Shown piece by piece: positions 496-47,646 of a stretch of DNA of 64,000 nucleotides (position 1 is the stretch's first letter; every line of letters begins with the position of its first letter). The notes under the pieces were generated by a model that ran no database searches, had not been told where the DNA came from, and saw nothing but the letters and a program-made list of their open reading frames with translations. A program made the position numbers and the translations under genes. Source of the stretch: Pseudogymnoascus verrucosus (lineage: Eukaryota); NCBI GenBank assembly GCA_001662655.1, contig KV460233.1. One strand, written 5' to 3'.

Positions 496-3400
496 CTATA
501 TAGTTTCCCATCCTCCATTGTTGATATCCTGTTCCAGCTTCCGGCTAATTACACTGGGAATTCCGTGCTGAAGCCACGTGTTCCTCAATAATGCATCATA
601 ACGCTTCTGATGGAGGTGAAGCTGTCGTCCATGGCGGAGACCTGGATCAACCTCGCCGAATTTGTCAATGTACGGTGCCACCATCCAGCTGCCAGAGTTA
701 TGATGTAGGTAAAAGACTGTGCACTTCCGAATATTAATGAAGAGGCCAATGTGAATTTGGCACCTAAAGCACGTTACTAATGTTTCACAAAAATGTATGC
801 GGACACTACTTACTTCCTCATGTGCTGTTGTGCACCACCAATCTTGGCAGAAGGTTTGCCTCTCGTCTTGGGTTCTTCTTTCAGGCAGCACATTGCTTGA
901 CCGCAAAAGATTGTACCGCAGAATAAACAAAGCATGGGGTCTGTAAGATCTTTGCCGGTGGTCGGGCAGCGTCCTTTCATTGTCTCCTCCATCAGCGTAT
1001 CGTAGTTCTTGGGCAATCCGATAAGCTCGAAAATGGTAGGATGAGAAACAGAGATGTCTTTGGCCTTTTGGTCGGATTTTCCCTCTTCGGGAGTATTCTT
1101 TGTTTGCCAAGCGAAGTGGGCATGAATCCACCCCCAAATAATGTGTTGCGTGGTGGAGATATCATCGTATGACAAGTTATCGTCATTGTCAATGATATCG
1201 TCTATCTTGGCTGTGCTCTTTTGGCCAATAAGGTCACATATCTCGTCAAACGAAGGCAGTCGTAGGGCCTCAGAAAGACGTCCCAACTCATCATCAGAAT
1301 TATGGGGGAAGAAGCTGTTGAAATCCGTCCCATATCGAATATACAGTAACAGAGATGCTTTGCGGAGGAACACAAGAGCGTACTTCTTCACGAATTCCTT
1401 GCAGTCATCAATGCCGCTGAAGCACTCTTGATCAAATCCTTCCAACTTATCATCGGACTCTTCGAAGGGCTGCGCATTGCCCAAGCCTAGCATAACCCTG
1501 TGCCTCATATCTAGCTTTGTGATATATGAGCAAGCACGTTGGAACGAGTTATCCTCTTGAGCTTCCTGGTCATTGAGAAGGCCAGCCCAAGACAGCCACT
1601 TCGCGGCGGGTGTGTTGCGTGCCATGGCCAAAACCACCTTGACAATCTCCGCAACGTAGCAAAGACGTAAAATATGCATAATATCAAGGTCGAGAACCGG
1701 AGCCAAGCAGAGCGATGTTTCCGTGAGGAAGTTGAAAATGTCACAGTTGAACAACGGATAGTGGTCTCTCTCCTCAGAATGCGACCTCAATGCTTGAGGG
1801 TATCCGCAGAAAAGCTGTTCAAGTTGGCGATCATAGGCATTCGTGAATGCAGCTGCTGTCGGGTTGTTGCCGTCGTTCTTCAACCCTCCAATGGCTACGT
1901 AAGAAGCCGCCGTCTCTGAAAGAATTCGTAAATGAGTCAGGCTCTGTTGTGGAACCTTCTCTATGAAAGTTGAACCGCTCTCTGAATCAACGCCGCGCTG
2001 CAGGATTTCTACGGCGGAAATCGAGAACCCAAGAGCCTGGGCCACAGTGTCCCCTGCGTAAAAGGCGTCTGCGCCTTCTGGACGCGGCTCTGGAATCTCC
2101 CGACTAATCAACTTGTTTCTCACTATGGTGTCGGACAGGCGACGGAATATGCTGACGAGTTCTATCAACCCATGATCGGCAGTGCTGGTTTGTGGCGGGG
2201 TAACGTTTGGTAGCTCAAGAGCGGCATCAGGAGGGAATGCGCCCGGCAGTCTTCGCATTGGCGCTCTGTTTGCCTGCAGTATGTTAAGGGCGTTATCTGG
2301 TAGAGATATTGGAGACGAAGGTACAGCCTCCCACGCTTCGTCTAGATTAGGCATTTTGCTTGACAACGACTGGACTACATTTTCTTGGATGTAGTTAAGA
2401 AACATGTCTCGGTAACGAGACCCAGGAAACTCTCCGTCACCAAGTGGTGCAGCGCTCTTTTCCTGCCTTTTAACGGCAGAGGGCAGAAGGGAATCAAGCC
2501 ACTCGTCATATGGCGCAGAAGTATTTACAAGTCCCGGATACGACTCCTCTTTCCCACGCCAAATGATTGGAAGGAACGCATTGCCTTGGGCTTTGCATAG
2601 TGGGCAGACAAACTCGTTGAGGTCAAGCCTCTCGGGATGGTGTCTAGCGATCTGATGACTCTGTCGTCGGGACGAAGCCTCGTAATATAACTCGAAGCAC
2701 TTGTAATGCATAATGTGTCCGCAGCCAACGGACACTGGGCCAAGCTTCATAGATTTCGAGGGGAAGCCCTTGCCTATCGTCTGTCTCTCACTAAGAACCT
2801 CCTGACCATTGGTAGCAATTTTGTGCACAACATGCCTGTTCTGACCGGAAACGCCAAATGGCCTGATTGCCTCAGCAGAACGGTCAAGGTTAGCAGGCAC
2901 GCTCGCAACTTCTTTGACAAAATCTTGATCCGAGAAGTCTGTTTGACGCAGAATACCACTCTCTTCCATCATAGCGAAAGTACCATATGGCTTATTGTCA
3001 TTCGTATCTTCTTGGCAAAGAATGCAGTTGCCAGACGGATATTGCCAGTTGTTCTTACGCTCTTCAGCTTGCACGTCCATATCCTCGTCGCTTAAATCTT
3101 CTTGGGCCCAGTCGGCGTCACCTTGATTGCTGAGGAAGTTCTTTTGTTGTTGCTGGAACTGAGCCATGACCTTTGCTTGCCTCTCAAGTGCTGCTTTCTT
3201 CTTCTTATCCCGCTCCTCATCTGGATTCGCGATGGCTGGAGATGCTGTGGATACTCTGTCAACAGAAGCTCCAAGTTTTGCAAAGGCACTCTCAAAGCCC
3301 CGAGGCCTCTTTTGCCTCATTCTCTTCAAAACCAGGCTAATTTTAGGATGGCAGGATTTAAATGCCTCTCTGGTTGACATAATTTCCAAGATGGAAACTA

Positions 3401-6400
3401 TAGTCTTCGCATGAGGTGCATCATTCATGAAATTGCTCCTCGCATTCCTTGTCAACGCAATGTAAACGAAGGATTGGAGAGCCTCTTCCGACATGTCGTC
3501 TTCTTCAGTGTTATCTTCTGCAATTGAAACAAGGACCAAGTGCAAAACCACATGGAGGAAAGCCTCTACCCTTGTGGCAGGTACAGTTGGAGTGAGTTCC
3601 TGTGATTTCAAGGGATATAACAACGAGTAATAAATGATCTGAGCAAATATTCCAGTCTTCGTGAAAGCAGCCAAATCCGTGAAGATACCCGACTCGATAG
3701 GGCGAAGCTTCGATTCAAACACGACGTCGGCCGCTGGTCGTCCGGTTTTCTTGGATACCCAGTTGCGATACGCAGTTTCCGACTCTTCTCTTTGGTTTTT
3801 GTTATAGTGCGCAATGTAAGGGTCAATTTCTTTCAGAAATTGTTCTTGTAGTTCAAACGTTCCAACATCAGAGAGTCCCTCGGGCGCTTTGAATATCGTC
3901 ATTTCGTCCAAGAGATCCTGGCATTCTTCTTGTTCTTGGAACTTATCCGGCAATTTGCTACAGATCTCTGAGAACGACAATGGTTTGAAGCAAAGGACAT
4001 GCACAATATCGCGTCTCAGGGCAACCGTATGTGGGTTGGGCTCGGTCTCGATAGGAACCAACGACGTCCTATCGCAGAGCAATACAATGAGAAGGTGTAT
4101 CATATCTTCTGCAACATCGAGTTGCTGTTGATGGTCTAGGACATCGGAGTTCTGTTCATAGATACCCTTCATCCACATTTCCAACCCGTATCTATCAATC
4201 ATTGATGCCAATACACGACTCGGCGAGCAAATGACCATGGCGGTTTGTAGTAGGAATAAGTCTCGATGGTGAGTTACGTCTCGTTGGGTAACCCCTCGGT
4301 ATGTGCCAGCCTGATGGCGAAGGCTCATACCATTGCGAACCCACATACTAGCCTTCATCTGCGCCAACCATGCGCAAACTCGAAGTGGATAGTCGAATGC
4401 TGCCATGAGTAAATCTTCCGAGTTATACTCGTTGGATGGCATAAGTCGCTGGCCCATAAGCTTTGGCTTTTGCATTAAGCCATCTTGAGTAAAAGTAAGT
4501 AGGTTTGAAAGCTCATCGCGAGACATGCTCTTGCCGCACTCAATGAGCCATGATAGCGTGTAATGCAGCGCATGATGGAAACTGATTGGCTGATCTTCGA
4601 CGACGAACTTGATAACACTGTGTTCGCCAGTCTCCGAGGTATCAAACTCATAATCTGCAACTGTTTTGAACTTCACTTCTTCTTTAATCTCAGAGCCTTC
4701 AAACCGTCTACGCTCTAAGCCCAGCGAGTTTATGATGACTGTATTCGCTGAGAAACGAATGGCCCTAGAAATAGCAGACATATCTTCGCCCAGCTTCCAC
4801 TTGAAAGACTCCGAGAACTGACGGCATAGGCGGTTGATCTCTCTAGTCACTAGAGAGGCGCTTATCCAAGCATCAGTCTCGTACTCGAGATGGTCGCCTA
4901 CGGCTCTGACATTGGGACATATTCCTTGATGAAGCTTGACGAGGTCGAGGAATTGCATCATGTATCTCTCATCTGTTCGGAGCCTTTCATGAACATGTGG
5001 CGCATTGAAAAGATAGCGAAGATCCATGAAAAAGTGATACATCCGGCGGTTGGTCACAGAACCAGTCTCAAACTTGAGAACGGCATTCGGATTAATCTCA
5101 ATTGGCGGCGCAACTTGCCTAGCGGTTAGGAACGTAAATAATATAGACATCAGATGTGTCAAGAAGTTCCCTCTCTCGACAATTTCTGACGTGATGGATG
5201 GCGTCGTGAGCATCTGCAACGAGATATTGATTATCGAGTAATCAGGCTCGCGATCAGCAATTAGATACAGCTGCGCCAAGAGAGTATATAACCCAGCAAA
5301 GCGAAGTCCCAGTACACGTTTAAACTCAGGGATTGTGACGACGGTAGAAATGTAAAGGTCACGGAGATCGACCCGAACCTTTTTCCACATCCGTAAGTCG
5401 AAGAGGATCATCCAGTCAAGTCTTACACGCTGCCAAAGATCTTCATGTAGCGGTATAGACTCCCTATCATTGAACGCTTCTGGTGTCTCAAGCCAGTATC
5501 TCGGTGGCCTTCCAACCTTCTCAGGTCTAGCATGCTTCGTACCTGGGGTTTTGGGGATATCCATATTGGCTTTGGCATAGATCGAAGATGTTATTAACGG
5601 CTCTGCCATATCCGAATCCGACGGAGTGGTTTCACGATCCATTAGAACTCTCTGGGTGTCTAAACCTGGAGGTGGCGGTGGTGGAGGAGGAGGCGGCGGC
5701 GGGTATCCAGCCATAGTGGCTTCATCTGCCTCTTGCGCTGATGCATCATCTGTCATCTCGACATCTCCATCTTGATCGCCACCCGCCTGTGCCTCAACTA
5801 GCATGACGTCCATAATTGTTTGAAGTTCTTCTTCGTCCACATCTTCACCCTCACTCAATTCACCTCCATCTCCGTCTTCGTCTTCGTCCTCCGAACTTTC
5901 TACTCCTGCTCGTTCAGCTTCCGCCATAGCGGCCTCCAGACGTATGATCTGTATATTCCGCGGCCCTAATAGCATCATTCTAGTTTCTTTTTCTTTTGCT
6001 TGGTCTTCAATTTCTAGGTCGTCAATACCGCTCTTGCCGATTTCTGCGTTGACAGCCTCACTTCCCGTTCGCCAAGATTTGAGCATTTCCTCGCATACAA
6101 CGTGTCGTAGGATATTGTGGTCTCCACCGACGCTGCAGCCCGATATATCTCCAAGCCACTGTATAATTGTCCCGCACATCTGTTCCCGGAATGTATCCCG
6201 AGCAGAGCGGATGCTAACCGTAACTTTGATGTGCTCGATGACCTCCGCGACGGCAAGTAATTCGTTGATATCGAAACTGTACTTCACAATAGCCCGTCCC
6301 ATGTCGTCAGTTTCGTAGGCTCGTTGCAACCCTTCCGCTACCCTGACTTTGCAGGCCCGAGAGACTTGCAGGCTAACCTCCTCCACCGTATGCTTTTCGT

Positions 6401-7235
6401 CATTCCACAATATCAGGGCGTACTCAATAGGCTCTTCGACTATATCCCCCCGGTAGTAAGGGGATGTGAGGCGGGACATTCGCTCATCGAGTTTGATGCT
6501 ATCAACCGTTTTAGGGAGTCGTAGGTGTTCTGGCGAACAGGATATAACATCGCATACGTAGTCGAAAGCTCGGCCAATGGTCATCCGTATGCTTTCAATA
6601 AGTTCATCAGGCAGTCCAGACGCCTCTTTTGATTTCCCAGACCTTTTTGCTTCATGCTCGCTCTCGCTATGTATCGTGCAGTGAACATTGCGTTTCCATG
6701 CCTCAGGGTCGCCACAATCGCAGCAGCCGCTGTTTCCAGGGGATATGCTAATATACACCATGTGGCCCGTATGATCAGAAGAATCGTAGCATCTACTGCA
6801 AAGAACGCAGGTATCATCTGCGCTGCACGTCTTGCATCTGTATGTTGCCTCGCCACTCTTGAAGATATGACCGCAAGCCTTGCCCCTCGCCGCCTCTGTA
6901 TATTCTGCTCCATCCACGGCGCCTTGAGCTCCCCGAAGCTCCCATTTCTCGTTTGGTGCAGGTTGACGTCCCTCAGGAAAGAAGAGTCGCATATACTTGT
7001 CCTGGCCGCCTGCTAAAGACCAGAAGAGGTTATAAAGAAGGTCGTTGCTTGCGGATTCGTCATAGCGGTTCTTCTTCACCCGCGGCAAGTCTCTAAAAAA
7101 CTCGCAGAGCTGTCGCTCCTGTGTCGACATTCCAATCGCTGCCATCGATGCTATCCCATGTGCTTTATGGGCAGCTGCAGCTTCATTTCTTTGTGGTGTG
7201 GTGATGTTTTGTTTCCTCGTGGTTGCCACCAACAT
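496..7235 (-). CDS. UBR1: N-end rule E3 ubiquitin ligase (UBR box, ClpS-like domain, RING-H2 variant)
   Basis: UBR box CGHIFKSGEATYRCKTC...CCDCGDPEAW; ClpS-like LWNDEKHT; RING CILC...CGHIMHYKC...CPLC. Exons 7235-814 and 763-496 (intron GTAAGT..TAG). A probable 5'UTR intron 7302-7236 abuts the ATG; the true start could be the downstream MAAIGMS. Confidence 0.95.
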
Positions 7236-27251: not shown

Positions 27252-27871
27252 TTATAGTTTCTCGGTAGGGGCTGCCACTTCTTGGACCTTTGCCCCCTCG
27301 CCCTCTCCCGTAGGCTTGGGCCTATCGGTTACAGTTCCATCGGCCCATATCTCAAAATCCCCATCCTCGCTCAACGTTCCCTTCTTAACCAGCTGGCCCT
27401 GCTCTCGGATTATATCCTCGATTGTCATTGATTTATCGCCAAAGATCTGCAGTTTCAAGTCAGCGTCGGTCACCATAATCAAATCATCTATAGCACATCC
27501 CCAAGCCGACATAAACAGGTAACATCCGAACTTACATTTAGATGGTCGCTAATAACGTGTCTGTTCTTGCACCCCGGGCAACTTATCAGCACGCTCCCCT
27601 TATGGTACCCCTGCTTCGAGACTCGATGTGTCGAGCGCGTGGAGCACGGCTTGCAGGTAAAGGTCATCTCATATGCAGGCTGATCGGCCGGGGCTTCTGT
27701 GGTTTTGCGAGGGATTTCGAAGGGTTTAATAGCGTTTCGTAGGCTGGGCGTGGCGAAGAAGTGGAGGGGCCGAGAGATGGGTTTCTGGAATACCGCTATC
27801 CTGGGGGCAGACTTAAAGTCTTGTAGGGCTATCCGCCGCAAAAGGCGAAAGGCGGCTTGTCGTGGTAACAT
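27252..27871 (-). CDS. ZIM17: Mitochondrial DNL zinc-finger chaperone Zim17/Tim15/Hep1
   Basis: Exons 27871-27536 and 27446-27252; Arg-rich presequence; FTCKPC...CPGCKNRHVISDHL|NIF. Confidence 0.92.
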
Positions 27872-28290
27872 ATTTGGTTGTGGTGAGGTTGGCTGGCAAC
27901 TTATTGTTGGTGCGGATGTTCGTGAGAAGTGAAATTCAACACCAAACCATTGGGATGACGTTTTGGGGAACAATAAAATGTGAACCTTAAACACTAGCGG
28001 TTCCTTACCCGCCAAGCCGCTAGTCCTTCAACTCCGTCCCTCCGAAAGTTACAGAAGTCGGCCGCATGGCTTCAAACGCTAGGATAAAGTATAATCCGAA
28101 TCTTAGGCTTCTGGGGCCTGTCAAGAGGGAACCATGTTTACCATCTCGATATTAAGATCGATCTGCTTCTGTGGTCTATTGCCACTCTCACCGGGGCAAC
28201 TTCACGACAGACGCACAAAGACCAGCTCCGTTGGCTGGCATTCTATGCTTTGGCTTCTGAATACTTCATCTGTGCAGAATGACCTTTGTG

Positions 28291-28670
28291 TGCCAAATCT
28301 TTGAGGATTCACTACCCCGCCACTAGATCAAGAGACTGTTGCGCAGTGCCCAAGTGACGGGAAATATCAATTTCGGACTTCACGGCCTGATTCGGAAACA
28401 TGATTTCTGGCCGTGGTAGAGGTGGTAAAATCCGCCCACCAAGACGTGTAAGTTCACTTGTTGTTTATCTCACAAATTCATTCCTCAACGACTGCCCAAA
28501 TTGAGGACTCACTGCCCCTCCACTGGAGCACGACACTGTTGCGCAAAGTGCCCAACTGTTGGGAAATATCAATTCCTGTCTTCACGGCCTGATTCAGAAA
28601 CATGGCGTCTGCCCTTGACAAAGCAGTTGCTCAGGCTCTGAAGCTATCCCTAGCTGGATCGAGTGTAATG
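28291..28670 (+). repeat. Tandem duplication (offset about 200 bp) of the CUL3 5'UTR plus first coding exon
   Basis: 28301-28402 versus 28501-28604: about 14 substitutions and one 2-nt indel by eye (about 85% identity). Both copies end in GAAACATG, and codon-level similarity continues past the ATG. Confidence 0.9.
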
Positions 28671-31328
28671 GGCAAAATTCACCTTTCTCGGTTTCCACAC
28701 TTGTTACTTGGCTACACAGAGGCTAACTTTATCACAGCATGCCCTCGGTGGCAGGACCGACCAGGATGATTTTGAGTCAATTTGGAGCGCAATCTGTGTT
28801 GCCCTTCGGGAAATCCACACTCGAAATGCCTCCCAAATCTCATTCGAACAGCTCTATCGCCTAGCATACAAAATCGTCCTACAGAAGAACGGCGATAAGC
28901 TATATGAGCGTGTCAAGGAGTTTGAGGAACAGTGGTTTGCCGAAGAGGTCATGCCGAAGATCAGATCACTAATCACCAGAAACCATACCGGCTTGACCGT
29001 TGGCGGAGGGTCCAGCTCGACAGCAACCGAGAGGAGGATATCCGGTGAGAAGTTCCTGAAGGGGCTTAAGTCGTCGTGGGAAGATCACATTCTCTGCATG
29101 AACATGACAGGCGACGTTCTCATGTATATGGATCGTGTGTACTGTACGGACAATCGGAGGCCATCGATCTTCACCACTTGCATGGGGCTATTCAGAGACC
29201 ATATCCTGCGCTCCAAGCTCGTTGAGTCTGACCTAGACCTCAGCACTTTTGACATCCTGAACTCTGTTCTCCTCGATATGATTCAAATGGAGCGCGAAGG
29301 CGACGTTATCGACAAGAATTTAGTCCGATCCTGCATGTACATGCTTGAGGGACTCTACGAAACCGATGAAGATGACGAGAACGAGAAACTGTATTTGACC
29401 GTCTTCGAGCCGAAGTTCTTGAACTCCAGCAGGGCATTCTATCAAAAAGAATGTATGATGCTATTGCGAGAATCGGATGCCGGCACCTGGCTTCGTCAGA
29501 CTCAGAAACGCTTGATGGAAGAGGCTGACAGATGCAAAACTACGATTTCGCCATTGACTGCGCAGAAAATTGCGGAGGTCATTGATACTGAAATGATCGG
29601 AAGCCATTTGAACGAATTCATTCAATTGGAAAGCAGTGGTGTCAAGTCAATGATCATGAACGATCGATTTGATGAGCTTGCTCTTTTATACCAAAACATC
29701 TCTCGTATTGACCCGAAGAAAGCAGCCTTGCGCGATGCTCTACAGGGACGTGTGATGGAAATGGGCTGTGATATCAACAATACCATCGCCAATACCGATT
29801 TCTCTGAGAAGGCTCCGGTGGCTGAAGATGCCGACAAAGCTGCGAAGGGCAGAGTTCCACCGCCTAACCCGGCTGCTCAACAGACTGCGGCAGCCATCAG
29901 ATGGGTTGACGAGGTGTTGCAGCTCAAGGACAAGTTTGAGAACATGTGGGAGAAGTGCTTCGAGAGCGACCTGATCTTGCAGACTGCGTTGACAAAGAGC
30001 TTCTCTGATTTCATCAACCTATTCGATCGCAGCTCCGAATACATTTCGCTGTTTGTCGATGTGAACCTGAAGAGCGGCATTAAAGGCAGAACCGAAGCTG
30101 AAGTGGACGCCGTCCTCGACAAGGCGACTACGTTGCTTCGTTACGTGCAGGACAAGGATATGTTCGAGCGCTACTACAAGAAACATCTCGCGCGCCGCCT
30201 GTTGCATGGCAAGTCGGAGAGTGCAGAAGTGGAGAAGCAAATGATTTCTCGCATGAAGCAGGAAGTTGGCAATTACTTCACCACTAAACTCGAAGGAATG
30301 TTCAAGGATATGACCATGTCAGAAGAACTGACTTCGAACTACCGAACCCACATTCAGGGTCTCGGCGAAAGGGACAGGAAGCAGATTGACCTTGGCATTA
30401 ACGTCTTGACCACAAACCACTGGCCAATGGAGGTTATGGGTGCTGCGCAGGCACGCTCGGAAGACGGCCGTGTTCAGCAGTGCGTCTGGCCACCTGAAAT
30501 CAAGCATTTGCAAGACAGCTTCACGAAGTTCTACATGAAGAAGCACAATGGACGTCAGCTGACCTGGCTCCCATTCAGCGGATCCGCCGACATCCGTTGC
30601 GTTTTCCCGAAGATCCCAGGCAAGGAAGGCATACTTGGCCGCGAGCGGAAGCATGAACTCACAGTTCCAACTCTCGGCATGATCGTCTTGTTGCTGTTCA
30701 ATGACCTCGAGGAAGGCGAGTCTCTCTCGTTCGAGGAGATCAGAGAGCGTAGTCGCATCGAGTCGAAGGATCTCCAGCGCATTTTGCCTTGTCTTGCGAT
30801 TTTACCAAAAGCCAAGGTCCTGAACAAGGATCCCCCTACGAAGAATCTCAAGCCTACTGATCGCTTTTCGTTCAATGCTGCGTTTACCAGCAAGTCGGTC
30901 AAGATCAAGGCTCCGACCGCTACGGGCATAAACAAGGTGGAGGGAACTGAGGAGCGAAAGCAGACGGAGAGTAAGAACGACGAGATGAGAGGTGGTGTGA
31001 TCGAGGCTGCGATTGTTCGCATTATGAAGTAAGTTTAAAATTCTTTTTACTCCCATCTTTAACCACAGACATTATCCAAGCATTCACTCGCGTCAATCAC
31101 CTACAGAATCCTTCCAAAACTCAGTCTCTACTCTACTAACACACAACTCCCAGGCAACGCAAGCAACTCGAGCACCAACAGCTCCTCACCGAAGTGATTA
31201 CTCAACTCACCAGCCGCTTCCGCCCCGACCTCAACATGGTCAAGAAGCGAATCGAGAGTCTGATCGAGCGCGAATACCTGGAGCGCGTGGAGGATGTCGA
31301 GAGGCCAACATATAGATACCTGGCATGA
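28400..31328 (+). CDS. CUL3: Cullin-3
   Basis: Exons 28400-28447 ([16 protein letters not shown]), 28738-31028 and 31154-31328, giving 837 aa. Motifs [25 protein letters not shown], neddylation site AAIVRIMK, C-terminus YRYLA. Confidence 0.95.
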
Positions 31329-46297: not shown

Positions 46298-47646
46298 ATG
46301 GCTTCCAAGGAAGAGGAAAATAGTGCCCATCGGGACCCGTTCAGCCTCCAGAGAATGTGTGAGAGGGCAGCTATCAGAAATATTAAAGGTATGGTTCAAT
46401 AATGACGGCTATAGGATCTGTCAAGCTAATAAATCTTGAAGATATATACGATGTTGGCGGCATGTCATACAAAACCGTCAAACCAATCCTTGCCAGAATA
46501 AAAATCCCAGAGCAGCTCCGTCAAATCGAGCTTGCCTCTCCCCAAATCATCGGCGAAACAGTCGAACTCTGGGAGCGATTCATCCAGCGCGATGTCGAGA
46601 ACTGGCGTGAGAAAAACTACCGCCCCAGCAATCCTGCAGACTGGCCAGCCGTCTACAGGAAGTACATGGATGAACAGAAGGCCAAAATCGACTACGATAA
46701 AGAGAAGCTCCGCCAGGCATTGGCCGGCATCAAGAAAGAACAGACCAACAACCTCAGCAAGAAGGTCGAAGCTCGATACATGCCAAAAATACCAAGAGAC
46801 TCGCGTATGCGTGCAAATGATGGCGGAGTCCCGATTGTCGGTCGCGGCGGCAGATCTGGGAACCGTATTGGTGTTCCCGGTCGTCGCCTTCCGTCGGTGT
46901 CCGCAATCGGATATGCAGCGACAGGAGTCAAGAAGAGAGTCAACATCGTCGAGAAGGCCAGACGCGAGGCCGCTATGGCTATTGCAGCCCGTCGACAGGG
47001 TCAAGCCCATGTCCCTGACTTTCGGAGCCAAATCAGGAAGGCTCCAGCTGGGATGGTGAACGAGTATCGCAAGGCTGCTGAGGTTGAAAAGAAGAAGCTC
47101 AGCCCGCGCAATTCCCCAGTCGCTACTGGTATCCCCGTCCCAAACGCAGCCATGAAAGACCGCGAGGCACGACTTCGAGCTATCAAAGCGTCTGGTGCGA
47201 GGAAGCCACCAGTTCAAGAGCAAGTGCCTTACCTTGCACCTGCGCAAGTCCTCGACTTCAACACTCCGTCCGAGGACACCCACGCAAGCTCTGCAAACGA
47301 TGACGATGACATCGAGAAGCTCTTTGGCGAATACCATGAGCGCCAGCTCAGCGCGACAGCTAAGCGCAAGCTACACGGAAACGATTACGCCGACCCATTC
47401 ACCTACCGCCCTTCCCCAGTCAAACCACCGACTAAACGCACAACCGATATCCCGCCAGAGGAATGGGAAGCCCGATTGCAAGGGAGAAAGAGCGCCAGTC
47501 CGCCTGCGCGCTCCAGACAGTCATCCCCGAGTGGAGTCACGGAGCAGCCGAAGAATGCGAGTCCGATGAAGGGTCCACCAAAGAAGATTTTCAGGCGCCC
47601 ACCTACGGATCCGTTCATGACGCCGAAGAGACCTCGCCGTGCTTAG
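46298..47646 (+). CDS. ELA1: RNA polymerase II elongation factor SIII subunit A (Elongin A)
   Basis: Exons 46298-46388 and 46442-47646; BC-box-like SLQRMC, then IYDVGGMSY...PEQLRQIE...ELWERFIQRD. Confidence 0.85.

What the first reader, a model, noticed from the sequence alone, without database searches (positions are those of the whole stretch)
28291..28737. Duplicated CUL3 first exon: candidate alternative cullin-3 N-terminus hidden in intron 1
Seen: about 100 bp of 5'UTR plus the ATG is tandemly duplicated (about 85% identity by eye). Copy 1 encodes [16 protein letters not shown], followed by GTAAGT at 28448. Copy 2 (ATG 28602) encodes [21 protein letters not shown], followed by GTAATG at 28665. 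Both donors are phase 0 and share the branch site GCTAAC and the acceptor CAG at 28737. Each therefore splices in frame to HALGGRTDQ..., giving 837 or 842 aa. The copy-2 intron would be a typical 73 nt, while the copy-1 intron is an atypical 290 nt. Known: the Cul3 N-terminal region contacts BTB substrate adaptors. Inference: alternative transcription starts could switch Cul3 between two N-termini with different adaptor preference or localisation.
Basis: partly seen in the sequence, partly recalled or inferred. Interest (0 to 1): 0.8.

Follow-up and report, generated by a model that had tools for sequence, protein, structure and literature searches.

The report
Two alternative cullin-3 start exons
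This fungal cullin-3 gene has two interchangeable first coding exons, and the second, which lies inside the first intron, is conserved as protein-coding sequence across many related fungi, so this ubiquitin-ligase scaffold probably exists with two different front ends.

Summary
The window is a Pseudogymnoascus cullin-3 gene. Two ATG-initiated mini-exons, 1a at 28400-28447 and 1b at 28602-28664, each end at a phase-0 GT and share the acceptor at 28737. About 105 nt of leader before each ATG is duplicated at 82-85% identity.

The two spliced products (837 and 842 aa) are letter-for-letter identical to two public annotations. So 1b is not hidden: different pipelines simply picked different exons.

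New here: 1b is far older than the duplication. Thirteen unrelated metagenome loci, and annotated proteins from at least seven named Leotiomycete genera, carry both exons in the same layout. The 1b core evolves like coding sequence: codon-position differences are 0.41/0.41/0.66, pairwise dN/dS is 0.17-0.33, and a conserved Ser uses both TCN and AGY codons. The leader duplication is seen only in the window's lineage.

Exon 1a encodes the front part of the known BTB-binding N-terminal motif of Cul3, so 1b would swap that part out.

Weak point: every spliced RNA form I could see uses 1a, and no read shows the 1b junction. How 1b is expressed, and its effect on adaptors, are inferred.

Verdict: a real, conserved, apparently undescribed alternative N-terminus. 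Moderately interesting.

The parts
28293..28399 (+). Leader copy 1: the sequence directly upstream of ATG1a (5' leader of the 1a transcript).
   Evidence: Aligns to 28496-28601 at 82-85%. An RNA contig of a relative covers 28156-28329 and is joined to exon 2.
28400..28447 (+). Exon 1a coding part, [16 protein letters not shown]. This is the canonical Cul3 N-terminus and is followed by the strong donor GTAAGT at 28448.
   Evidence: The same motif starts 58 of 175 fetched homologues. The spliced product is identical to P0135.
28448..28737 (+). Intron 1 as seen from the 1a donor (290 nt). It contains leader copy 2 and exon 1b.
   Evidence: The RNA contig in run X19 skips it.
28496..28601 (+). Leader copy 2, directly upstream of ATG1b. 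The stretch from the 1a donor to ATG1b (28448-28601) contains no ATG.
28602..28664 (+). Exon 1b coding part, [21 protein letters not shown]. It is followed by the weak donor GTAATG at 28665.
   Evidence: The spliced product is identical to P0127. The peptide core is conserved with a coding-type substitution pattern.
28665..28737 (+). Intron as seen from the 1b donor (73 nt). It holds the branch-site-like GCTAAC at 28723-28728 and the shared acceptor CAG at 28735-28737.
   Evidence: The acceptor position is confirmed by the RNA joint ending at 28738.
28738..31028 (+). Exon 2, the main body of cullin-3.
   Evidence: Pfam Cullin, E 5.3e-205. Best solved relatives are human CUL3, E 2e-135.
31029..31153 (+). 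Intron 2 (125 nt, GTAAGT..CAG).
   Evidence: Joint 31028^31154 is seen in runs X1 and X19. Sequence checked.
31154..31328 (+). Last coding exon, including the stop codon.
   Evidence: (the product matches P0135 and P0127 to the end).

Best explanation
The gene encodes the CRL3 scaffold cullin-3 with two mutually exclusive first coding exons that splice to one acceptor.

Exon 1a gives the canonical basic N-terminus (…GKIRPPRR). This is the front part of the N-terminal extension, or 'NA motif', that in human CUL3 lies in the BTB/3-box groove of adaptors.

Exon 1b lies about 200 nt downstream, inside intron 1. It replaces that segment with an Ala/Leu-rich peptide whose consensus core is F-[DN]-x-A-[LV]-x-[YH]-A-x-x-x-S.

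Shown: both exons, their frames and the shared acceptor. Also shown: 1b is an old, purifying-selected coding element present across Leotiomycetes, and 1a-to-exon-2 splicing occurs in RNA.

Inferred: 1b is expressed from a transcript that starts downstream of ATG1a, that is, from a start site within intron 1. I infer this because ATG1a has a strong context and would otherwise capture scanning ribosomes. Also inferred: 1b is a minor or condition-specific form, and the 1b protein assembles differently with BTB adaptors.

In the window's lineage alone, about 105 nt of leader plus the ATG was copied between the two exons, by duplication or gene conversion. Both start codons therefore now sit behind near-identical leaders. 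The direction of copying and its consequence are unknown.
For: Anatomy:
- Searches give the exons, frames and acceptor. Both joined products are identical to public proteins P0135 (837 aa) and P0127 (842 aa).

Conserved architecture:
- Of the 55 metagenome loci, 13 non-redundant loci hold both exons (plus near-duplicates L002 and L008). Each has a 1a exon ending in a consensus donor and, 156-214 nt after ATG1a, a 1b ORF.
- In 13 of 14 cases (the window plus 12 loci) a phase-0 GT at the end of the conserved peptide joins in frame to the same acceptor. L055 could not be confirmed because of a 1-nt indel.
- Intron 1 is 270-326 nt in all 14. In loci without 1b that group with Sordariomycete or Lecanoromycete proteins, the spacing is 71-139 nt.

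Coding signature:
- A gapless 13-codon core across the 14 sequences differs at 0.41/0.41/0.66 of codon positions 1/2/3. There are 291 synonymous codon pairs, against 58 and 83 in the other two frames. Flanking sequence differs at 0.69-0.75.
- In four close loci the variable columns by codon position are 6/5/14.
- dN/dS is 0.17, 0.33 and 0.18 for the 3 of 6 pairs where dS was computable.
- The conserved Ser is coded by both TCN and AGY codons.
- In L006 the old ATG position reads TGG, and a new in-frame ATG lies 27 nt upstream.
- In a 5-locus DNA alignment, 1b is a conservation island: majority fraction 0.81 against 0.68 in both intron flanks.

Start-codon features:
- 13 of 14 ATG1b have a purine at -3, and 14 of 14 have G at +4.
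- ATG triplets are depleted between the 1a donor and ATG1b: 9 observed against 19.3 +/- 4.3 in shuffles, with 0.5% of shuffles reaching that low.

Independent annotations:
- 21 of 175 fetched homologues start with a 1b-type peptide (HMM E <= 0.01) and 58 with 1a; none has both.
- Named 1b carriers are Pseudogymnoascus (5 records), Lachnellula suecica, Ciborinia, Venustampulla, Amylocarpus, Tricladium, Monilinia vaccinii-corymbosi, and Botrytis cinerea, B. fragariae and B. galanthina.
- B. cinerea is annotated both ways, and both forms share the same exon 2 start (P0170 vs P0168).

Function of the swapped segment (passages read):
- Deleting the human CUL3 N-terminal extension costs 30-fold in KLHL11 affinity (PMC3597819).
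- Human aa 1-24, the 'NA motif', is needed for dimeric CRL3 assembly and activity (PMC11074293).
- phmmer aligns the last 1a residue, R16, with human I18.
Against: - No RNA evidence for 1b. The one informative RNA contig (run X19, a relative about 92% identical) joins the leader region to 28738 with 124 letters in between. That fits exon 1a (118 nt in the window) and skips 1b.
- Six of six full-length spliced ORFs on 2.9-5.1 kb Logan contigs carry 1a: P0061, P0071, P0140, P0145, P0147 and P0154. That these contigs are RNA is my inference.
- 1b donors are weak. G at +5 occurs in 6 of 14, against 14 of 14 for 1a.
- 1b has decayed in one Leotiomycete-like lineage. In L003 the core is out of frame with its ATG. 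In L004 there is a stop and no ATG. L010, L012 and L013 have no remnant. L018 also lacks it. So 1b is dispensable in some fungi.
- The existence of an in-frame GT is a weak test, because I searched for compatible sites.
- The loci are related, so pairwise counts and shuffle tests overstate independence.
- AF2 places the 1b peptide with pLDDT about 40, so there is no structural support.
Confidence: 0.7

Rival explanations
1. Same two protein isoforms, but without an internal promoter. One pre-mRNA is made, and the choice between the strong 1a donor and the weak 1b donor (alternative 5' splice sites) decides the product. In the 1b-spliced mRNA the 1a ORF becomes a short upstream ORF, and 1b is reached by reinitiation or leaky scanning.
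For: Both donors share one acceptor. In 12 of 14 sequences the 1a reading frame, read into the intron, stops before ATG1b (ORF lengths). Weak 1b donors would fit a regulated minor choice.
Against: ATG1a has A at -3 in all 14 sequences, so leaky scanning should be poor. The read-through ORF is 19-73 codons long and overlaps ATG1b in L005 and L015. Such mRNAs would be expected targets of nonsense-mediated decay (established knowledge, not tested here). No contig retaining 28448-28601 was seen in the two RNA runs laid.
Confidence: 0.15
2. 1b is a conserved small ORF, a regulatory peptide or conserved-peptide upstream ORF. It would be translated from intron-retaining or intron-initiated transcripts but never joined to Cul3.
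For: The peptide is conserved, yet no 1b-to-exon-2 junction was seen. The proposed donors are weak.
Against: Conservation stops at the proposed donor. The unspliced ORFs run on for unrelated tails, giving total lengths of 33-56 codons with no conserved stop. Exon 2 has no conserved in-frame ATG that such an upstream ORF could control; in the window the first in-frame Met is 71 codons in. The donor hexamer and the bases after it are conserved within groups (GTCAGT in 3 loci; the GTAGTT donor and the next 12 bases are identical in L020 and L026).
Confidence: 0.1
3. 1b has no protein function. It would be a gene-prediction artefact sitting on a conserved non-coding intron element such as an enhancer or splicing element.
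For: Predictors often miss 48-nt first exons. Annotations split by pipeline rather than by biology. RNA contigs show only 1a. 1b was lost in some lineages.
Against: Third-position excess, the synonymous-pair excess specific to one frame, Ser coded by two codon families, a compensating upstream ATG in L006, and ATG depletion in the leader are all hard to get from a non-coding element. There is no Rfam match (0 hits at E <= 1 in 28000-28900). No conserved RNA fold was found (0 of 21 predicted pairs compensatory).
Confidence: 0.07
4. The reading implied by the first reader's title: a recent tandem duplication of the 5'UTR plus first exon created a new, lineage-specific alternative N-terminus.
For: The two leaders are 82-85% identical and the match runs 13-16 nt past the ATG.
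Against: 1b, with the same peptide core, sits at the same place in 13 loci whose two leaders are unrelated (SW scores 13-20 against shuffle means of 12-16.4). It also occurs in at least seven named genera. ATG-to-ATG spacing in the window (202 nt) lies inside the range of the others (156-214 nt), so no length was added. The 1a and 1b peptides are unrelated.
Confidence: 0.03

Closest known systems
Human CUL3 N-terminal extension / NA motif (aa 1-24), which binds the BTB 3-box groove
   Same: Exon 1a encodes a short basic N-terminal segment (…GKIRPPRR) placed just before the first cullin-repeat helix. phmmer aligns its last residue with human I18. In humans this segment adds 30-fold affinity for KLHL11 (PMC3597819, passages). 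It is also needed for dimeric CRL3 assembly and activity (PMC11074293, passages and section 9).
   Different: In humans the effect was shown by engineered deletions. Here a natural second exon would replace roughly the part equivalent to human aa 1-17. The part equivalent to aa 18-24 (HALGGRT) lies in exon 2 and is shared by both forms. Residue-level homology of KIRPPRR to human K15-P22 is not established.
Alternative first exons or alternative transcription starts giving N-terminal protein isoforms in filamentous fungi
   Same: One gene gives two N-termini with a common body. Examples surfaced in a search listing: FgTAD3 in Fusarium (PMC11087585) and CotA isoforms (PMC11484838). I saw only the listing and abstract starts.
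   Different: Here both first exons are coding mini-exons sharing one acceptor. The second is nested in the intron of the first and is conserved across a fungal class. Expression of the second form is not yet shown.
Conserved-peptide upstream ORFs, such as the fungal arginine attenuator peptide (recalled, from no call)
   Same: A short (about 20 codon) ORF upstream of a main coding body, conserved at the amino-acid level.
   Different: There is no conserved stop and no downstream main-ORF start. Conservation ends at an in-frame splice donor.

Membership tests
Cullin-3 (CRL3 scaffold) | Cullin family domain over most of the protein. | tested here: met
   Pfam PF00888, E 5.3e-205, profile positions 1-620 of 620.
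Cullin-3 (CRL3 scaffold) | Closest to CUL3 rather than to other cullins. | tested here: met
   Human Cullin-3 chains score E 2e-135 over query residues 16-837. CUL4A scores 7e-96, CUL2 3e-64 and CUL1 5e-64. Sources name the homologues 'cullin 3'.
Cullin-3 (CRL3 scaffold) | N-terminal extension / NA motif ahead of cullin repeat 1. | tested here: inconclusive
   A basic K-I-R-P-P-R-R segment is present in exon 1a and in 58 of 175 homologues. The phmmer alignment to human CUL3 starts only at residue 16, so residue-level homology is not shown.
Mutually exclusive alternative first coding exons | Two ATG-initiated exons with donors in the same phase and one shared acceptor, both giving an open frame. 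| tested here: met
   (837 and 842 aa products).
Mutually exclusive alternative first coding exons | Both joined forms present in RNA. | tested here: inconclusive
   The 1a form is seen in the X19 contig and in 6 of 6 spliced Logan ORFs. The 1b form was not seen. Only two RNA runs, both kept as contigs, could be laid, and contigs drop rare variants.
Mutually exclusive alternative first coding exons | A separate transcription start for the second exon. | not testable with these tools
   No 5'-end data were available. This rests on start-codon context and ATG depletion only.
Tandem or segmental duplication of the leader | Two copies significantly more alike than chance, in direct orientation. 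| tested here: met
   Contigs from DNA runs X23 and X24 (related strains) run through both copies.
Conserved-peptide upstream ORF | Its own conserved stop codon and a main ORF start downstream in the same mRNA. | tested here: not met
   The ORF tails are unconserved and total lengths range from 33 to 56 codons. There is no conserved ATG at the start of exon 2.

The most novel reading that the evidence does not exclude
Leotiomycete fungi, including Pseudogymnoascus, Botrytis, Monilinia and Lachnellula, keep a class-wide, genetically encoded switch on the Cul3 scaffold. A second promoter inside intron 1 would make a Cul3 whose adaptor-clamping N-terminal motif is replaced by a different conserved peptide. 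This would create a second pool of CRL3 with altered BTB-adaptor assembly, dimerisation or localisation. It would be a natural counterpart of the engineered delta-NA mutants of human CUL3. In Pseudogymnoascus the two start codons have additionally been put behind near-identical leaders, which would couple their translational control.
Probability: 0.4. Interest if true: 0.7.

Novelty: new member of a known kind. Interest (0 to 1): 0.5.

Why it matters
Cul3 is the single scaffold for all BTB-adaptor ubiquitin ligases. Its N-terminal motif has only recently been shown, in human proteins, to govern adaptor affinity and dimeric assembly. A naturally selected isoform that swaps this motif would give a ready-made tool for asking what the motif does in vivo. 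It would also affect how CRL3 is modelled in a fungal class that includes important plant and wildlife pathogens.

Practically, public annotations of the same gene disagree (837 vs 842 aa in Pseudogymnoascus, 843 vs 850 aa in Botrytis cinerea). This work explains why: both exons are real candidates, and RNA supports 1a as the main form.

Four full-text searches returned no paper describing an alternative Cul3 first exon in fungi. That is absence from those searches only.

Tried and rejected
- **Whole genome.** None is held for this window, so I could not look for other copies genome-wide or for BTB partners.
- **RNA runs.** The run search listed 24 rows, only 1 on record as RNA, and 2 holding at least half the words. 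I laid 4 of the 24.
  - X23 and X24 are DNA of related strains.
  - X1 (RNA, shows the intron 2 joint) has no cover over 27924-28667.
  - X19 has no contig over 28420-28667 apart from the one that joins across it.
  - This lack of cover is no evidence about 1b.
- **Origin of the copied leader.** The leaders of 13 other loci were compared with both window copies. All 52 comparisons gave z <= 3.6, so the direction of copying could not be determined.
- **RNA structure in the leaders.** RNAalifold gave -8.6 kcal/mol with 0 of 21 pairs compensatory. Rfam gave 0 matches. An RNA element was rejected.
- **Amphipathic-helix idea for 1b.** The hydrophobic moment exceeds shuffles (fraction <= 0.05) in only 3 of 14 peptides: the window, L001 and L006. 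In L006 the top-scoring stretch is its Pro-rich N-terminal extension, not the conserved core. This is not a general property.
- **AF2 of the 842-aa form with a 52-row alignment.** The body is confident (mean pLDDT 78.9). Residues 1-28 are below 50. Residues 2-17 are drawn as a helix but not placed. No fold search was run on it.
- **1b HMM on the loci**. This is circular for the 13 training loci and their 2 near-duplicates. Only the weak hits L003 (E 0.016) and L052 (E 0.029) are new.
- **Tree**. This is the quick IQ-TREE, not the careful search. It used 23 of 55 loci plus 36 named proteins. L023, L055, near-duplicates and loci without 1a evidence were left out, and 23 of 56 inner forks are unsupported. 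I used it only to place loci near named taxa.
- **Earlier scan notes.** None were relevant.
Full report
**What is there**

The window is ordinary fungal chromosomal DNA. Its ORFs include UBR1, a WDR5-like protein, RTG2, UTP20, a DNL zinc-finger gene, an MFS transporter, THOC7, Elongin A, REV1 and others. No whole genome is held for it.

On the + strand lies a cullin gene. Exon 2 (28738-31028) matches Pfam Cullin at E 5.3e-205. Its best solved relatives are human CUL3 chains at E 2e-135, well ahead of CUL4A, CUL2 and CUL1. A homologue search gave 471 proteins at E <= 0.001 among 1045 candidates, with 120 listed. It is headed by Pseudogymnoascus proteins at 99% identity.

**The observation**

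- ATG1a at 28400, 16 codons, GTAAGT at 28448.
- ATG1b at 28602, 21 codons, GTAATG at 28665.
- GCTAAC at 28723-28728 and CAG at 28735-28737.
- Exon 2 starts in phase 0 at 28738.

The roughly 105-nt leaders, plus the ATG and the next 13-16 nt, are duplicated:
- 84% over 45 nt and 83% over 71 nt, with 200-202 nt spacing.
- 117 nt at 82%, E 1.8e-28, with no third copy in the 64 kb window.
- Smith-Waterman score 129 against 15.6 +/- 2.5 in shuffles.

Joining either exon to exon 2 and to the last exon (31154-31328; intron 2 is 125 nt) gives 837 and 842 aa. These are identical to P0135 (Pseudogymnoascus sp. VKM F-103) and P0127 (P. verrucosus RefSeq 'cullin-3') respectively. So the second N-terminus is not hidden. 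Public annotations of what is, at protein level, the same gene simply disagree.

**Exon 1b is old; the duplication is not**

I fetched 55 metagenome loci encoding relatives of the start of exon 2.

A 1a-type exon (M-I-S-G-R-G-…-K-I-R-P-P-R-R followed by GT) lies upstream in 38 of them by regex. One of these, L042, is doubtful.

Thirteen non-redundant loci also carry an ATG-initiated ORF 156-214 nt after ATG1a: L001, L005, L006, L007, L009, L015, L016, L017, L020, L023, L024, L026 and L055. L002 and L008 are near-duplicates of L001 and L009. The ORF peptide shares a core with the window's 1b: F-[DN]-x-A-[LV]-x-[YH]-A-x-x-x-S.

In the window and 12 of these loci, a phase-0 GT at the end of the conserved peptide joins in frame to the same acceptor that 1a uses. 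L055 has a 1-nt indel just after the acceptor, so its join could not be confirmed.

Intron 1, measured from the 1a donor, is 270-326 nt in all 14. In loci that lack 1b and group with Sordariomycete or Lecanoromycete proteins, the corresponding spacing is 71-139 nt.

None of the 13 loci shows similarity between its two leaders: SW scores are 13-20 against shuffle means of 12-16.4. The ATG-to-ATG spacing in the window (202 nt) is typical of the others.

The leader duplication is therefore a later, lineage-specific event laid over an older two-exon architecture. It is also present in DNA contigs of two related strains, which run through both copies (runs X23 and X24). Its direction could not be determined.

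**Exon 1b evolves as coding sequence**

- Over a gapless 13-codon core in the 14 sequences, pairwise differences are 0.41, 0.41 and 0.66 at codon positions 1, 2 and 3. There are 291 synonymous codon pairs. The other two frames give 58 and 83, and upstream flanks differ at 0.69-0.75 at all positions.
- In four close loci aligned without gaps from the ATG, variable columns by codon position are 6, 5 and 14 of 19 each.
- dN/dS is 0.17, 0.33 and 0.18 for the three pairs with a defined dS. The other three pairs are saturated. Constraint is weaker than on exon 2 (dN 0.10-0.36 against 0.04-0.06).
- The conserved Ser is coded by TCC/TCT in two sequences and by AGC/AGT in the others.
- In L006 the ancestral ATG position reads TGG, and an in-frame ATG 27 nt upstream restores the start.
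- In a DNA alignment of five related loci, 1b stands out from the intron: majority fraction 0.81 against 0.68 on both sides. Exon 1a scores 0.92.
- ATG1b has a purine at -3 in 13 of 14 and G at +4 in 14 of 14.
- The 105-169 nt between the 1a donor and ATG1b hold 9 ATGs in total, against 19.3 +/- 4.3 in mononucleotide shuffles. Nine of the 14 sequences have none.

The loci are related to one another, so these counts overstate independence. All the signals do point the same way.

**Independent annotations**

I fetched 175 homologues and cluster members of 300 aa or more. Of these, 58 begin with the 1a motif and 21 match a 1b profile at E <= 0.01. None has both.

Named 1b carriers are five Pseudogymnoascus records, Lachnellula suecica, Ciborinia camelliae, Venustampulla, Amylocarpus, Tricladium, Monilinia vaccinii-corymbosi, and Botrytis cinerea, B. 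fragariae and B. galanthina.

Botrytis cinerea is annotated both ways. B05.10 uses 1a and BcDW1 and others use 1b, and both join to the identical exon 2 start.

A quick tree places the 1b-bearing loci among named Leotiomycetes. For example, L020 is identical to Lachnellula hyalina over the 272 columns used, and that species is annotated with 1a.

**Evidence against, and limits**

I found no RNA evidence for 1b.
- Of four runs laid, two are DNA. One RNA run does not cover the 5' end.
- The soil metatranscriptome contig, from a relative about 92% identical, joins 28156-28329 through 124 unaligned letters to exactly 28738. That fits exon 1a (118 nt in the window) and removes the whole 290-nt intron, including 1b.
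- Six of six full-length ORFs on 2.9-5.1 kb Logan contigs have 1a fused directly to exon 2, so I infer they come from spliced RNA.
- 1a is therefore the main form. Contigs drop rare variants, so a minor form is not excluded.

The 1b donors are weak: G at +5 in 6 of 14, against 14 of 14 for 1a.

1b has decayed in a Bisporella-like lineage. In L003 it is out of frame with its ATG. In L004 there is a stop and no ATG. L010, L012 and L013 have no remnant. It is also absent from L018.

**Mechanism**

The exon and acceptor anatomy, the coding conservation and the 1a splicing are shown. The rest is inferred.

ATG1a has a strong context in all 14 sequences. A transcript containing it would therefore be translated from 1a. 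I conclude that 1b most likely needs a transcript starting downstream of ATG1a, that is, a start site inside intron 1. Alternative 5' splice-site choice with reinitiation is the less likely route.

Exon 1a encodes the counterpart of roughly human CUL3 aa 1-17; phmmer aligns fungal R16 with human I18. Human aa 17-24 lie in the BTB/3-box groove, and deleting aa 1-22 costs 30-fold in affinity for KLHL11 (PMC3597819, passages). Human aa 1-24, the 'NA motif' with Met16, Arg17, Ile18, Arg19, Phe21 and Met23, is needed for dimeric CRL3 assembly and activity (PMC11074293, passages and section 9).

The 1b isoform would keep the part equivalent to aa 18-24 (HALGGRT, in exon 2) and replace the rest. An altered adaptor assembly is a reasonable expectation, but it is untested.

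AF2 gives no confident placement of the 1b peptide (pLDDT about 40). An amphipathic helix is not a general property of the peptides.

**Rivals**

- A stand-alone conserved small ORF is disfavoured. Conservation ends at the donor, the unspliced tails and stops are not conserved, and exon 2 has no conserved start.
- A non-coding element is disfavoured by the frame-specific synonymous pattern. There is also no Rfam match and no covarying fold.
- A recent duplication as the origin of 1b is contradicted.

**Novelty**

[quoted passage not shown] Both protein models are already in public databases.

Four full-text searches returned no paper that describes an alternative Cul3 first exon in fungi: 'cullin 3' + 'alternative first exon'; 'cullin' + 'Pseudogymnoascus'; 'cullin' / 'alternative N-terminus' / 'fungi'; and 'cullin 3' / Botrytis / Sclerotinia / Leotiomycetes.

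I rate it a new member of a known kind, of moderate interest. The class-wide conservation is the surprising part, and the missing expression evidence is the main gap.

Noticed in passing
window 28279-28326: An upstream ATG opens a 15-codon ORF (MTFVCQIFEDSLPRH, then stop) that overlaps the 5' end of leader copy 1. Copy 2 has no equivalent ATG, and the stop position reads TGG there.
   Followed up: partly
window 28717-28719: A second CAG, 18 nt upstream of the shared acceptor, is also in frame. It would add RLTLSQ and give a 55-nt intron from the 1b donor. The RNA joint seen uses 28738.
   Followed up: partly
L006:3801-3891: The position homologous to ATG1b reads TGG, and a new in-frame ATG 27 nt upstream (again coding MAS…) extends the exon. 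This looks like a compensated start-codon loss.
   Followed up: partly
L003:3840-4000; L004:1535-1690; L010, L012, L013 intron 1: In this Bisporella-like group 1b is decayed. In L003 the core is out of frame with the nearby ATG. In L004 a stop sits two codons upstream and there is no ATG. L010, L012 and L013 have no remnant; their intron instead carries a poly-C tract of variable length. A related Logan/ENA protein (P0043) still starts with M directly at the core.
   Followed up: partly
stored proteins P0129 and P0130 (Pseudogymnoascus VKM strains): These are odd public gene models. P0129 joins 1a to an acceptor just before ATG1b and then reads through 1b and its intron (889 aa). P0130 has a long upstream extension (880 aa).
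   Followed up: no
group of loci L005, L006, L007, L009 (start of exon 2): Exon 2 begins G-M-I-G-G-D, so an in-frame ATG sits at the second codon of exon 2. Several database proteins (P0022, P0028, P0029, P0040) start there, which gives a possible third start in that lineage.
   Followed up: no
window 27491-28027 (-): A DNL zinc-finger (Zim17-like) gene lies head-to-head with cullin-3, with only about 370 nt between the two start codons. The promoter region is therefore shared and short.
   Followed up: no
window 813-7235 (-), 46387-47643 (+): Other ubiquitin-system genes lie in the same 64 kb: a UBR1-type N-recognin and an Elongin A homologue. This is probably coincidence.
   Followed up: no
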